A stretch of DNA of 64,000 nt from Candidatus Moraniibacteriota bacterium (GTDB taxonomy: Bacteria > Patescibacteriota > Minisyncoccia > Moranbacterales > UBA1568). Where the stretch lies: assembly GCA_016182385.1 (NCBI GenBank), contig JACPGV010000002.1:55553-119552 (forward strand), given 5' to 3'. The position numbers were made by a program, and so were the translations under genes. Positions 37,175-38,780 of the stretch are shown here, in pieces; position 1 is the stretch's first letter; each line of letters starts with the position of its first letter. The notes below the pieces were generated by a model. The model was not told the origin of the DNA. It did not search any database and saw nothing but the letters and a program-made list of their open reading frames with translations.

Positions 37175-37780
37175 ATGAATGAACATCCTAAGAAAGAACG
37201 ATCATTGGTAATTATCAAACCGGACGGTATACAGCGGGCGCTTACCGGCGAAATTATTTCTCGTTTTGAGCGGACGGGACTCAAGTTTATCGCCATGAAA
37301 CTTCTTGTTCCCAAGGCGGAGCAATGCTGGACACACTATAATAAAGATGAAGAATGGTTTCTTAAGAAGGGCGCGCGTATCATTGACGATCGTAAGACGC
37401 ACGGGATGCCTATTGAAAAAGAGGTTATTGAATACGGCAAGGATATTATTCAGGCGAATGTGGATTTTTTTACTTCTGGACCGGTACTCGCCTTTGTCAT
37501 TGAGGGCAATCAGTCGGTGGCTATCGTGAAAAAAATTGTTGGCGGAACAGAGCCAACCACTTCGGATGTAGGGACTATTCGTGGTGACTTGACGGTGGAC
37601 TCGTATGCGCTTTCGAGTCTTGATAATCGCGCGGTACGCAATTTGGTTCATTGTTCTGATAGTCCTGAAGAAGCAGAACGAGAAATTCCCATTTGGTTTC
37701 AGGAGAATGAATTGATCAATTATCGTTTAGTAGGTGAGCAAATCCTCTACGATGTGAATCTTGACGGTATCTTGGAGTAA
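37175..37780 (+). CDS. ndk: Nucleoside diphosphate kinase carrying an internal insertion of about 30-40 aa.
   Basis: ERSLVIIKPDGIQRALTGEIISRFERTGLKFIAMK...SGPVLAFVIEG...GTIRGDL...HCSDSPEEAEREIPIWF. The total of 201 aa compares with about 140-150 typical. Confidence 0.85.
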   Translation: MNEHPKKERSLVIIKPDGIQRALTGEIISRFERTGLKFIAMKLLVPKAEQCWTHYNKDEEWFLKKGARIIDDRKTHGMPIEKEVIEYGKDIIQANVDFFTSGPVLAFVIEGNQSVAIVKKIVGGTEPTTSDVGTIRGDLTVDSYALSSLDNRAVRNLVHCSDSPEEAEREIPIWFQENELINYRLVGEQILYDVNLDGILE

Positions 37781-37793
37781 ATTTTTTCGGCGT

Positions 37794-37824
37794 AAAAAAT
37801 CCCTTTTTGAAGGGATTTTTTATT
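37794..37824 (+). terminator. Rho-independent terminator after ndk.
   Basis: aaaaaatccc-tttttgaa-gggatttttt hairpin followed by a T-run. Confidence 0.65.
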
Positions 37825-37825
37825 A

Positions 37826-37854
37826 TTGACAAAACATCATGTTTTTGGTACAGT
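37826..37854 (+). promoter_or_regulatory. Sigma70-like promoter driving the small-ORF/tRNA-Pro region.
   Basis: TTGACA, 17 nt, then TACAGT, immediately after the ndk terminator. Confidence 0.4.
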
Positions 37855-37990
37855 ACTTAGTAATTGGAGCGACCGAAGAGCTCAAGAGGAGGGGAATGGG
37901 GTAATATTCTCTTTTTCTTTGGTAAAGTTGTTCCAACGGTGTCCCAAGTCAACGGTTAACGGGACAAAAAAATGAAACTCTGGAGGTGTT

Positions 37991-38152
37991 ATGGAAAAAA
38001 AGGAGGATATTGCTCTTCCTCAGAATAGAGAGGAGTTATTGGAGATGATGTGGGCGGCAATAGCAGTGGGGCTAAGAAACCCACGCAATGCCCAAATCAT
38101 AGAACGTGTAAGGAGAGGAGACGAACGTCTCCTCTCTCAGCAAAGAAATTAG
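37991..38152 (+). CDS. Possible small protein of 53 aa with a strong SD. Alternatively it is part of a structured RNA leader.
   Basis: GGAGG lies 4 nt upstream of the ATG. It translates to MEKKEDIALPQNREELLEMMWAAIAVGLRNPRNAQIIERVRRGDERLLSQQRN. It contains a perfect 11-bp hairpin (gagaggagacg/cgtctcctctc) and is followed by a terminator-like hairpin (gggtagtcg...cgactaccc plus T-rich) at 38164-38197. Confidence 0.2.
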   Translation: MEKKEDIALPQNREELLEMMWAAIAVGLRNPRNAQIIERVRRGDERLLSQQRN

Positions 38153-38229
38153 TTGCGCGAGGAGGGTAGTCGCATCGTCGACTACCCCTTTTCATTTGTT
38201 TGAGAAAATGATACGGTGAGGAATGTTTG

Positions 38230-38303
38230 CGGGCTGTAGTATACCGGTAGTACGCGTCCATGGGGTGGATGTAGACCGGGTTCAATTCCCGGCAGCCCGA
38301 CCA
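38230..38303 (+). tRNA. tRNA-Pro (anticodon GGG), with the CCA end encoded.
   Basis: Cloverleaf folded by hand. Acceptor stem CGGGCUG/CAGCCCG, D-arm GUA..UAC, anticodon stem CGUCC/GGAUG with loop AUGGGGU (U33, GGG, G37), T-arm CCGGG-UUCAAUU-CCCGG, discriminator A plus CCA. Confidence 0.75.
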
Positions 38304-38335
38304 AGATTGAGAATTTAATAGGTGCTTCACGCGAA

Positions 38336-38449
38336 GCGTCCATGGGGGTGAAAAGTAAATTGCTTTACTTTTCACGGGCGTTTCCGCAAGTCGTCCCTGA
38401 CTTGCGGAAAAAGAATGCTTTGGGGGATGTAGACGGCGGTTCAATTTTT
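38336..38449 (+). other. Degenerate partial duplicate of the tRNA-Pro anticodon and T-arm region, interrupted by an insert of about 70 nt carrying two perfect hairpins.
   Basis: gcgtccatgggggtg (38336-50) matches tRNA positions 26-40, and gggggatgtagacggcggttcaattttt (38422-49) matches the tRNA 3' half (ggatgtagaccgggttcaattccc). Between them lie hairpins gtgaaaagtaaa-ttgc-tttacttttcac (12 bp) and ccgcaagtc-gtccct-gacttgcgg (9 bp). Confidence 0.45.
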
Positions 38450-38465
38450 GATAGTCTGGACAAAT

Positions 38466-38501
38466 AAAAAACTCTCTTTATTTTTTTAAGGAGAGTTTTT
38501 T
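38466..38501. terminator. Bidirectional intrinsic terminator between the tRNA region (+) and rpmB (-).
   Basis: aaaaaactctc ... gagagtttttt perfect inverted repeat flanked by A- and T-runs. Confidence 0.6.
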
Positions 38502-38507
38502 AGAATG

Positions 38508-38684
38508 TTATTTCGTTTCTTTGGCCAAAGTGCGGATTGCTTTTGTGGAGAGACGAAGTTTTACACCACCGATGCGTTTCGTTTGAAGATTGACCTTGAA
38601 AGTTCGGCGACTGGCAATATTGGAATGACTGCGTGAATTACCAGTTTTCGTTCCGCGTCCGGTGAGTTGACAGGTGCGGCTCAT
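38508..38684 (-). CDS. rpmB: 50S ribosomal protein L28, 58 aa.
   Basis: Hand translation of the minus strand gives [58 protein letters not shown]. This matches the L28 consensus MSR.CQ.TGK....GN.RSH....++R.F.PNL. It falls below the ORF-track size cutoff. Confidence 0.8.
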
Positions 38685-38780
38685 AAAAATCTATTGAAGA
38701 GTTACAAAAATGAGAGTATCATAGCTTTATTGCTTTGGCAAGAGGAGATTTTGTTTTTAGGTGTTTCTAATATTTTTGTT

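What the first reader, a model, noticed from the sequence alone, without database searches (positions are those of the whole stretch)
37826..38501. tRNA-Pro locus: promoter, SD-driven mini-ORF with hairpins, intact tRNA-Pro(GGG), then a split tRNA-fragment duplicate
Downstream of the intact tRNA-Pro there is a second copy of its anticodon-stem/loop 5' side (gcgtccatgggggtg) and a second copy of its anticodon-3'/variable/T-arm (gggggatgtagacggcggttcaattttt). They are separated by an insert of about 70 nt made of two perfect hairpins of 12 bp and 9 bp. This resembles either a decayed second tRNA gene with an anticodon-loop insertion or a relic attachment-site duplication left by an excised integrative element. 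No integrase is nearby. Upstream lies a 53-aa ORF with the best Shine-Dalgarno in the region (GGAGG), which itself contains a perfect 11-bp hairpin and a terminator-like hairpin. The whole unit from 37826 to 38500 may be one structured RNA precursor rather than protein-coding.
Basis: seen in the sequence. Interest (0 to 1): 0.5.

Follow-up and report, generated by a model that had tools for sequence, protein, structure and literature searches.

The report
Broken tRNA-Pro copy with structured insert
Behind the working proline tRNA gene lies a dead, truncated second copy, split just after its anticodon by a conserved folded 77-base insert; related Moranbacteria carry the same insert at the same site, sometimes holding a complete replacement tRNA gene inside the old one.

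Summary
Bases 38336-38347 and 38425-38446 repeat parts of tRNA-Pro(GGG) (38230-38303) in order: an exact-match chain of 31 nt against at most 19 in 5000 shuffles. Between them lie 77 nt that fold into two 12-bp hairpins plus a 7-bp helix. The organism is a Candidatus Moranbacteria (CPR) bacterium.

The copy is not a gene. It lacks the acceptor stem, the D arm and the 3' T stem. In the 17 non-redundant relic-bearing loci of 58 with an intact tRNA-Pro(GGG) at the same ndk-rpmB site, tRNA pieces surround one intact tRNA. The 5' pieces lie upstream and the 3' pieces downstream. The breaks fall in the anticodon loop (37/38), the T loop and the D loop.

The same hairpin element sits at 37/38 in 13 copies. 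In seven of them its stem encloses the intact tRNA, giving a tRNA within a tRNA, up to three layers deep. Its helices covary, and it is 62-86% identical where synonymous sites of ndk are saturated.

Best reading: a relic of repeated tRNA-Pro replacement by a small structured cassette, now carried in the tRNA's 3' trailer. No integrase, intron ribozyme or viral copy was found. The enzymology is unknown.

The 53-aa ORF is an orphan. The locus holds two transcription units, not one precursor.

The parts
37793..37822 (+). Terminator hairpin after ndk (13-bp stem, T run)
   Evidence: I2. It directly follows the ndk stop at 37780.
37826..37854 (+). Sigma-70-like promoter TTGACA-17-TACAGT of the upstream, lineage-specific unit
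   Evidence: 10 of 12 matches, TG before the -10. No sequence similarity in relatives.
37991..38152 (+). 53-aa orphan ORF containing the 11-bp palindrome 38113-38136. Coding status is unsupported.
   Evidence: Its only match among 5.8 billion proteins is itself. No Pfam hit. No tblastn hit in related loci. It is not a member of the small-protein family found at this place in relatives. The region folds with z -5.9.
38164..38187 (+). Terminator-like GC hairpin that closes the upstream unit
   Evidence: A hairpin occupies the same position in about 30 related loci.
38188..38217 (+). Conserved promoter-like module of the tRNA unit (CTTTTCATTTG, then TGATACGGT as an extended -10)
   Evidence: Motif conserved upstream of the tRNA unit in about 30 loci. 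Function as a promoter is inferred.
38230..38303 (+). Intact tRNA-Pro(GGG) with encoded CCA
   Evidence: ARAGORN. Rfam RF00005, 51.4 bits. Identical over its first 72 nt (without the CCA end) to the tRNA of L046.
38336..38347 (+). Relic tRNA-Pro piece, standard positions 26-37 (5' strand of the anticodon stem plus the loop through G37)
   Evidence: 12/12 identity to 38254-38265.
38348..38375 (+). hp1: 12-bp hairpin with 4-nt loop, the first helix of the insert
   Evidence: (I4) and fold. In 16 family members 95.5% of cells pair, with 41 double-change cells against 11.5 expected.
38376..38420 (+). Helix P (38376-38382 with 38414-38420, including 3 G-U pairs) enclosing hp2 (38383-38392 with 38399-38408, loop GUCCCU) and a 5-nt bulge
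   Evidence: Minimum-free-energy fold. Covariation in 6 copies. (I5).
38421..38424 (+). 3' junction strand of the insert (TGGG; YGGA(A) in relatives)
   Evidence: Alignment A1.
38425..38446 (+). Relic tRNA-Pro piece, standard positions 39 to about 59 (3' strand of the anticodon stem, variable loop, degraded 5' T stem, T loop). The 3' T stem and the acceptor strand are missing.
   Evidence: (D4, D12). Sequence read.
38465..38502 (.). Bidirectional terminator shared by the tRNA unit (+) and rpmB (-)
   Evidence: 16-bp stem with a T run. rpmB = L28 at 38508-38684 on the minus strand.

Best explanation
Bases 38336-38446 are a dead remnant of an earlier tRNA-Pro(GGG) gene copy. The copy was split between positions 37 and 38 by a 77-nt element. 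With the old anticodon stem, this element forms a three-way junction: hp1, helix P, and hp2 on top of P. The remnant lies between the working tRNA and the terminator. It is therefore most likely transcribed as the tRNA's 3' trailer.

It is one late-stage example of a recurrent process at the ndk-rpmB locus of Moranbacteria. A small structured cassette enters a loop of the resident tRNA-Pro(GGG) gene, mostly the anticodon loop. The cassette consists of hp1, a closing stem P/Q, a complete tRNA-Pro(GGG), and the other strand of the stem. The new tRNA is transcribed from the old gene's promoter and is presumably released by RNase P and RNase Z. The halves of the old gene stay behind as leader and trailer. 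Repetition gives nested copies. In the window the element has no inner tRNA (variant I), and the old copy has lost both ends.

Shown: the duplication, the fold, the covariation, the family, the strict polarity of the pieces, the nesting, one filled/empty pair, and conservation far above neutral.

Inferred: the direction of events, the mobility of the cassette, co-transcription and processing. The enzyme that inserts the element is unknown.
For: 1. Duplication is beyond chance.

2. The same element follows YTGGGG(G) of a tRNA-Pro anticodon loop in 13 copies in 12 loci. Model R1 finds it nowhere else in 64 kb of window plus about 1 Mb of related loci.

3. Census: of 58 loci with an intact tRNA-Pro(GGG), 19 (17 non-redundant) have same-strand tRNA pieces within 450 nt, at 0.71 per kb against 0.03 per kb elsewhere. 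All upstream pieces are 5' parts and all downstream pieces are 3' parts, apart from one likely chance 12-mer and the 26/27-37 pieces of 5'-truncated downstream copies as in the window.

4. Nesting with matching outer halves is seen in L027 (5'A-5'B-C-3'B-3'A), L012, L018, L004, L145 and L029. The innermost copy is always the intact one.

5. The flanks of the inner tRNA pair with each other as helix P/Q (RNAalifold). The whole 264-nt L012 unit folds nested with z -5.1.

6. The window element folds exactly as the family consensus, z -5.1. In 29 pairs, 94% of cells pair and 12 pairs show double changes, reached by 0 of 500 shuffles.

7. The same inner unit (leader GAATTGTCGGT, tRNA, trailer CAATTATTAAATTCC) sits inside different outer tRNA types in L018, L009, L027 and L029.

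8. States are scattered over the ndk tree.

9. Every interrupted copy is defective as a tRNA (sequences).

10. Precedent for an insertion that kills a host tRNA and supplies its own copy of the same isotype: tRNA-dependent lysogeny (PMC10865867).
Against: - No recombinase, transposase or homing endonuclease lies near any copy.
- No copy of the element or of either tRNA type is found in IMG/VR. The two hits are chance matches.
- No free or 'donor' form of the cassette was seen.
- The window lacks the 5' part of the old copy that an insertion model predicts upstream of the working tRNA.
- The non-tRNA parts are 62-94% identical between species whose ndk four-fold sites are saturated at 17-47%. 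That fits selection for a function at least as well as recent mobility.
- The filled/empty pair can equally be read as a deletion between direct repeats.
- All comparators are metagenome assemblies.
Confidence: 0.55

Rival explanations
1. Functional RNA module. The tRNA-derived pieces and the hp1-P-hp2 junction are kept by selection as part of the tRNA-Pro transcript. Possible roles are a processing stalk, a stabilising trailer, a trailer-derived small RNA, or a sensor that pairs with the GGG anticodon through the UCYC loop of hp2. This does not exclude an origin by insertion.
For: - The element is 62-86% identical, and the cassette flanks 72-94%, where ndk four-fold sites are saturated.
- Compensatory changes occur in all three helices.
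- G-U pairs outnumber A-C mismatches 9 to 2, pointing to folding of the + strand.
- The loop GUCYCU and the junction strands are conserved.
- The leader 'CGGGMTGTAG-hairpin-TAAATATAT' is kept in at least 9 loci even without a 3' partner.
- In all 6 copies the hp2 loop can pair with the relic anticodon.
Against: - Many close relatives have the tRNA followed directly by a terminator with no such module. Some lack the tRNA altogether. It is therefore dispensable.
- The flanking tRNA pieces are truncated differently in each lineage.
- No Rfam family matches.
- The proposed pseudoknot shows no covariation.
- No downstream gene is available to regulate, because rpmB converges on the locus.
Confidence: 0.3
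2. Classical integration scar. A tyrosine-integrase element that crosses over in the anticodon loop once integrated into tRNA-Pro. The working tRNA is attL and the 26/27-to-3' fragment is attR. The island was later deleted, and the hairpins are remains of the att arms.
For: - The relic copies in the window, L017, L046 and L059 start at position 26/27, and L096 has a contiguous 28-72 fragment.
- The insert in the window is flanked by TGGGGG on both sides.
- L010 differs from L011 and L019 by a block bounded by a 19-21-bp repeat of the tRNA 3' end.
- tRNA fragments of this kind are the usual marks of islands (Islander abstract; PMC9897764).
Against: - An attR fragment should be uninterrupted. 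Here the insert lies inside it.
- No integrase or island is present in any of about 140 loci.
- Independent decay would not leave the same 75-nt folded element, with covarying stems, in six lineages.
- 5' halves upstream of the intact tRNA are not produced by the classical scheme.
Confidence: 0.12
3. A true intron-containing second tRNA-Pro gene that is spliced to give a working tRNA.
For: - The insert is at 37/38, the canonical intron site of archaea and eukaryotes.
- L012's outer copy keeps all four stems.
- Introns are common in Patescibacteria RNA genes (PMC13011429, PMC11270868).
Against: - The window copy has no acceptor stem, no D arm and no 3' T stem.
- ARAGORN in intron mode finds no intron-bearing tRNA-Pro in any locus.
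- Outer T or anticodon stems are broken in L027, L029, L018 and L145.
- There is no group I or II signal, and 77 nt is far too short.
- The junction is a three-way junction, not a bulge-helix-bulge.
- An intact copy is always present.
Confidence: 0.03

Closest known systems
tRNA-dependent lysogeny of actinobacteriophages (Guerrero-Bustamante and Hatfull 2024, PMC10865867)
   Same: An insertion splits a host tRNA gene without rebuilding it. [quoted passage not shown] The host then depends on the insert.
   Different: There the insert is a whole prophage with a tyrosine integrase and a roughly 10-bp core. Here the insert is 150-200 bp with no protein gene. It is bounded by a hairpin and a stem that pairs across the inner tRNA. 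It is layered up to three deep, and no integrase is in sight.
Displaced tRNA gene fragments at the ends of genomic islands (Islander, PMC4383910; tRNA gene fragments, PMC9897764)
   Same: Partial tRNA copies lie next to an intact tRNA, with break points in the anticodon loop or T loop. Direct repeats of the tRNA 3' end occur (L010).
   Different: Those fragments are uninterrupted 3' parts that lie kilobases away across an island. Here 5' parts also occur upstream, the pieces lie within 30-200 nt, and they carry folded inserts in their loops.
Canonical 37/38 introns and disrupted (multi-intron, split, permuted) tRNA genes of archaea and eukaryotes (PMC4390854, PMC4090602)
   Same: The position is one nucleotide 3' of the anticodon. 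Further inserts occur in the D and T loops. The 3' end of the insert is complementary to the anticodon region.
   Different: There is no bulge-helix-bulge motif, the exons are incomplete, the organism is a bacterium, and an intact copy always accompanies the interrupted ones. A splicing endonuclease could not be looked for.
[quoted passage not shown] 2026, PMC13011429)
   Same: The same phylum, and an anticodon-loop insertion that hides a tRNA from standard tools.
   Different: [quoted passage not shown] That survey found bacterial group I introns at nearly every anticodon-loop position except 37/38. The present insert is 77 nt with no group I core.
[quoted passage not shown] 2024, PMC11270868)
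   Same: Structured inserts in the genes of structural RNAs, typical of this radiation.
   Different: More than half of those are group-I-like, and they frequently encode LAGLIDADG endonucleases. The present elements are tiny hairpin modules without an ORF and sit in non-functional tRNA copies.

Membership tests
Functional tRNA gene | Complete cloverleaf: acceptor stem, D arm, anticodon arm and T arm | tested here: not met
   ARAGORN (with and without intron mode) and Rfam detect only 38230-38303. The copy lacks positions 1-25 and about 60-76.
Group I (or II) intron in a bacterial tRNA | Conserved ribozyme core detectable by the Rfam models; length of roughly 200 nt or more | tested here: not met
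   No intron family among all Rfam matches up to E = 10 in 37700-38750. The insert is 77 nt.
Group I (or II) intron in a bacterial tRNA | Both exons intact, so that splicing yields a tRNA | tested here: not met
   Exon parts are missing in the window. Stems are broken in most relatives.
Archaeal/eukaryal protein-spliced tRNA intron | Insertion at 37/38 | tested here: met
   Identity to the tRNA runs through G37 and resumes at position 39. The same holds in 13 family copies.
Archaeal/eukaryal protein-spliced tRNA intron | Bulge-helix-bulge motif at the exon-intron junctions | tested here: not met
   The predicted and covariation-supported structure is a three-way junction. Its 5' single strand is 6-7 nt (6 nt in the fold of the window copy), 0-1 nt separate hp1 from helix P, and its 3' single strand is 4-5 nt.
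Archaeal/eukaryal protein-spliced tRNA intron | Splicing endonuclease and ligase encoded in the genome | not testable with these tools
   Only 64 kb of the genome is available. No such gene was seen among the genes scanned with Pfam or otherwise recognised.
Island attR/attL tRNA fragment (tyrosine integrase) | Displaced fragment that repeats the tRNA from the crossover loop to the 3' end | tested here: inconclusive
   The copy starts at 26/27 as expected. It is interrupted at 37/38 and cut off at about 59. L096 and L010 have cleaner examples.
Island attR/attL tRNA fragment (tyrosine integrase) | Integrase-bearing island between the intact tRNA and the fragment | tested here: not met
   Only 32 nt separate them in the window. 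No integrase lies at 25-45 kb or in the intervals of the relatives examined.
tRNA-dependent-lysogeny type insertion | [quoted passage not shown] | tested here: met
   Met in the relatives L004, L009, L012, L018, L027, L029 and L145. In the window the insert has no inner tRNA.
tRNA-dependent-lysogeny type insertion | The insert is a prophage with an integrase | tested here: not met
   Inserts are 150-200 bp without an ORF. There are no viral matches.
Miniature inverted-repeat element | Terminal inverted repeats and a target-site duplication | tested here: inconclusive
   The flanks of the inner tRNA are inverted repeats (helix P/Q). hp1 lies outside them. The flanking repeat is only TGGGGG in the window and YGGA elsewhere. 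No other copies exist in the window.

The most novel reading that the evidence does not exclude
The hp1-P-hp2 module is a new kind of bacterial intervening element that is specific for position 37/38 of tRNA-Pro(GGG). In its full form it carries a replacement tRNA-Pro at the tip of its stem. It would be a protein-free 'tRNA-in-tRNA' cassette that kills the resident gene, is expressed from that gene's promoter, and thereby makes itself indispensable. It would spread between Moranbacteria lineages by an unknown route, either RNA-level or through a recombinase acting in trans.
Probability: 0.3. Interest if true: 0.85.

Novelty: new variant of a known kind. Interest (0 to 1): 0.6.

Why it matters
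Partial tRNA genes are normally read as scars of large integrated elements. Here the scars carry a small, conserved, covarying RNA-like structure at the canonical intron position. In relatives the structure holds a complete replacement tRNA.

If the cassette is mobile, it would be the smallest known element that ensures its own retention by replacing an essential-type gene. It would also add a third kind of insert to the RNA genes of CPR bacteria, beside group I introns and rRNA insertions. If it is instead kept by selection, it would be an unrecognised processing or regulatory module of a tRNA transcript.

In practice, such loci mislead tRNA counting, completeness estimates and assembly. One assembly of this organism breaks exactly at the tRNA.

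Tried and rejected
- **Rfam.** Run at gathering thresholds on the whole window and at E up to 10 on 37700-38750. Only the tRNA was found; there was no ribozyme, intron, riboswitch or known sRNA.
- **Hammerhead-like reading of the three-way junction.** Rejected. The order and sequence of the junction strands do not fit, and there is no Rfam hit.
- **Bulge-helix-bulge reading.** Rejected from the fold and covariation.
- **ARAGORN intron mode.** Run on all loci. No interrupted tRNA-Pro was recognised.
- **Collection scans.** An exact-pattern scan for the element found nothing in viral contigs or JGI metagenome contigs. Scans for both tRNA types in viral contigs found nothing. A looser two-anchor pattern gave two chance hits in phage coding DNA.
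- **Look-up of the L28 protein by identity.** Not on record.
- **The 53-aa ORF.** No Pfam hit, PHROG E = 0.018 only, no homologue, and not a member of the neighbouring small-protein family.
- **The small-protein family of the relatives.** No Pfam or PHROG match, so no hint of an excisionase or recombinase.
- **Genes in enlarged ndk-rpmB intervals of relatives.** ORFs were listed only; none was recognisable by eye as an integrase.
- **Pseudoknot between the hp2 loop and the relic anticodon.** Always pairable, but without covariation, so uninformative.
Full report
**What is in the window**

The region lies between ndk (37175-37780, Pfam NDK) and a convergent rpmB (38508-38684 on the minus strand, Pfam Ribosomal_L28). 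The single tRNA of the whole 64-kb window is tRNA-Pro(GGG) at 38230-38303 with an encoded CCA.

Downstream, the repeat finder reports three co-linear repeats of the tRNA:
- 38336-38347 equals 38254-38265 (12/12).
- 38422-38434 matches 38264-38276 (12/13).
- 38438-38446 equals 38279-38287 (9/9).

A chain of exact matches totals 31 nt. The best of 5000 dinucleotide shuffles gave 19. In standard numbering the copy holds positions 26-37 and 39 to about 59. The acceptor stem, the D arm, the 3' strand of the T stem and the 3' acceptor strand are absent, so it cannot be a tRNA.

The 77 nt between the two pieces (38348-38424) fold, together with the old anticodon stem, into a three-way junction (minimum-free-energy structure, -40.5 kcal/mol, z -5.1):
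- hp1: 12 bp, 38348-38375.
- Helix P: 38376-38382 with 38414-38420, including three G-U pairs.
- hp2: stacked on P, 38383-38392 with 38399-38408, loop GUCCCU.

**Organism and locus**

Relatives of the NDK protein place the window in Candidatus Moraniibacteriota (CPR/Patescibacteria). The only database match of the 53-aa ORF is NCBI HYV45_00540 of a Candidatus Moranbacteria MAG.

The gene order MBL-fold protein, ndk, variable interval, rpmB(-), M50 protease, rpsL is conserved. The interval ranges from about 100 nt to more than 4 kb and does not always hold the tRNA.

**The same thing in relatives**

I fetched 160 related ndk loci. Of these, 58 have an intact tRNA-Pro(GGG) in the interval, and 19 of the 58 (17 non-redundant) have further same-strand pieces of tRNA-Pro within 450 nt. 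That is 0.71 pieces per kb against 0.03 per kb elsewhere in the loci.

The pieces obey a polarity rule. Those upstream of the intact tRNA are 5' parts (positions 1 to 36-38). Those downstream are 3' parts (38-40 to 72, or 54/55 to 72). The exceptions are one likely chance 12-mer in L020 and the 26/27-37 pieces of 5'-truncated downstream copies, as in the window. The breaks fall in the anticodon loop at 37/38, in the T loop at 54-57, and in or next to the D loop.

In L027 the order is 5'A, 5'B, intact C, 3'B, 3'A, with matching acceptor strands for A and for B. L012, L018, L004, L145 and L029 have one or two such layers. In all of them the innermost copy is the only one that ARAGORN accepts, with or without intron mode.

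The tRNA at this locus exists in two sequence types (CGGGCUG... and CGGGGYR...) plus mosaics. Either type can be the outer or the inner copy.

**The insert is a family**

In 13 copies in 12 loci, the sequence right after YTGGGG(G) of the interrupted anticodon loop is a hairpin of 11-13 bp with a 4-nt loop (hp1). It is followed by C and GGG.

- **Variant I** (window, L016, L017, L018, L046, L059): the GGG opens helix P, which is capped by hp2. The hp2 loop GUCYCU is conserved.
- **Variant II** (L004, L009, L012, L027 twice, L029, L145): P (GGGAATTT with AAATTCCC) and a second helix Q enclose the intact inner tRNA.

RNAalifold recovers hp1, P and the cloverleaf. The 264-nt L012 unit folds as a fully nested structure closed by the outer acceptor stem (z -5.1).

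The insert ends with YGGA(A) (TGGG in the window), directly before position 39/40 of the old tRNA.

A covariance model of variant I scores 83-106 bits on the six variant I copies and 19-41 bits on variant II. It finds nothing else in the window or in about 1 Mb of related loci.

**Evidence that the fold matters**

- On six variant I copies, 94% of the cells of 29 pairs are standard pairs. Twelve pairs show changes on both sides. None of 500 shuffles and none of the slid registers comes close.
- For hp1 alone, on 16 copies of all variants, 95.5% of cells pair. There are 41 double-change cells against 11.5 expected.
- G-U pairs outnumber A-C mismatches 9 to 2, mostly in helix P. This favours folding of the + strand, the strand of the tRNA.
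- Four-fold degenerate sites of ndk are saturated between these species (17-47% identity). Variant I elements are 62-86% identical. The hp1-plus-leader flanks of variant II are 72-94% identical.

These sequences are therefore either under constraint or have moved recently. Identity of variant I does not track NDK identity: L018 and L059 share 72% of NDK residues but 86% of the element. The states are also scattered over an NDK tree. This leans towards movement or recombination, but the sample is small.

**Filled and empty sites**

L010 equals L011 and L019 plus a 173-nt block placed directly after the tRNA. The block ends in a second copy of the last 19-21 nt of the tRNA, and the downstream flank is shared. 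The block is a diverged version of the same architecture: an anticodon-arm remnant, an hp1-like hairpin, a T arm with a hairpin in its loop, and the 3' acceptor strand.

L096 shows an intact type-2 tRNA placed between a 5' remnant and a contiguous 28-72 remnant of a type-1 tRNA. This explains why the downstream copies of the window, L017, L046 and L059 begin at 26/27.

**What it most likely is**

The window segment is a late-stage relic of this process. It is an older tRNA-Pro copy, interrupted at 37/38 by the family element, then truncated at both ends. It now sits in the 3' trailer of the working tRNA.

The simplest account of the nesting is repeated insertion of a small cassette that brings a complete tRNA-Pro into a loop of the resident gene. 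This also accounts for the matching outer halves, the intact innermost copy, the inverted-repeat flanks of the inner tRNA, and the same inner unit lying inside different outer types. The new tRNA would be transcribed from the old promoter and cut out by RNase P and RNase Z.

A documented precedent for 'disrupt the host tRNA and supply your own' is tRNA-dependent lysogeny (PMC10865867). That case involves whole prophages and integrases.

I could not identify any enzyme. No integrase, transposase or endonuclease lies near the locus in the window or among the ORFs listed for the enlarged intervals of relatives. No viral contig carries the element or either tRNA type.

The conservation data fit equally well a module kept for a role in the tRNA transcript. 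That reading does not exclude an origin by insertion.

A true spliced intron is excluded for the window and unlikely for the relatives, whose outer copies mostly have broken stems. Bacterial group I introns have been reported at nearly all anticodon-loop positions except 37/38 (PMC13011429). The insert has no ribozyme signature.

**The upstream part of the finding**

The promoter-like site at 37826-37854 is real as a consensus match.

The 53-aa ORF (37991-38152) has no homologue but itself among 5.8 billion proteins. It has no Pfam family and no tblastn hit in related loci. It does not belong to the conserved 65-72-aa protein family that occupies this place in several relatives. The region folds unusually well (z -5.9), but nothing can be concluded without relatives. 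Bases 37781-38180 have no nucleotide similarity in the related loci.

A GC hairpin (38164-38187) followed by CTTTTCATTTG and an extended -10-like TGATACGGT is conserved in position and sequence upstream of the tRNA unit in about 30 loci. The locus therefore holds two transcription units rather than one long precursor. This is inferred from motifs, not measured.

**Limits**

- All comparators are metagenome assemblies. The pattern is also consistent across about 20 loci.
- The window's relic itself is not covered by the second assembly of this organism, which stops at the tRNA 3' end.
- Direction of events, mobility, transcription and processing are inferences.

Noticed in passing
L010 4799-5011, L011 4797-5009, L015 4809-5003, L027 1211-1405, L029 4517-4735, L046 4774-4992, L135 994-1179: A conserved 65-72-aa protein (motif LTxxQRxxLxxVxxR.G.DD..NPNxxDT..H..EHGF) lies between ndk and the tRNA in relatives. 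It has no Pfam or PHROG family. The window's ORF53 occupies the same place but is unrelated.
   Followed up: partly
L027 1511-1525 and 1820-1840; L029 5069-5090 and 5142-5162; L004 1181-1200; L059 4887-4906 and 4987-5005; L001 5161-5180: A small GC hairpin family (CCGCC-AGA-GGCGG, often ending ACAGG) is inserted in the D loop, at 25/26 and in the T loop (56/57) of the relic tRNA pieces. In L059 it even sits in the loop of hp1. Copies within one genome resemble each other.
   Followed up: partly
L064 4681-4716, L091 3610-3643, L121 3247-3281, L059 4688-4721, L027 1501-1534, L029 4824-4857, L096 4117-4178: A leader 'CGGGMTGTAG-hairpin-(A)TAAATATAT' (tRNA positions 1-10, a hairpin and a D-loop remnant) precedes the intact tRNA in at least 9 loci, often with no 3' partner. 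It is 74-97% identical across species with saturated synonymous sites.
   Followed up: partly
L081 4056-4128 (= window 38230-38302): An independent Logan assembly of the same organism (identical NDK and ORF53) ends exactly at the 3' end of the tRNA. This may reflect strain heterogeneity or a repeat-induced break at the relic.
   Followed up: no
L072 851-1189 (-): ARAGORN in intron mode finds a tRNA-Gln(CTG) with a 243-nt insert in the anticodon loop. It is probably one of the group I introns known from Patescibacteria.
   Followed up: no
window 38164-38217 and about 30 related loci: A conserved terminator-plus-promoter module (GC hairpin, CTTTTCATTTG, 8-10 nt, TTTGNTAYNCT) lies directly upstream of the tRNA-Pro unit.
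   Followed up: partly
Intact tRNAs of L001-L156 (list): tRNA-Pro(GGG) at this one locus comes in two discrete sequence types plus mosaics (L007, L008, L067: type-2 acceptor with type-1 anticodon arm; L036 and L037 the reverse). This suggests exchange of tRNA segments between lineages.
   Followed up: partly
window 38393-38398 with 38344-38347: The hp2 loop (UCCC, or UCUC in relatives) can pair with the relic anticodon GGGG in all six variant I copies. It also contains the cognate codon CCC in the window. There is no covariation, so the significance is unknown.
   Followed up: partly
window 37862-38200: The leader and the ORF53 region are rich in hairpins: z -2.6 for 37862-37990 and z -5.9 for 37991-38200. 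One is a perfect 11-bp palindrome with a 2-nt spacer inside the ORF.
   Followed up: partly
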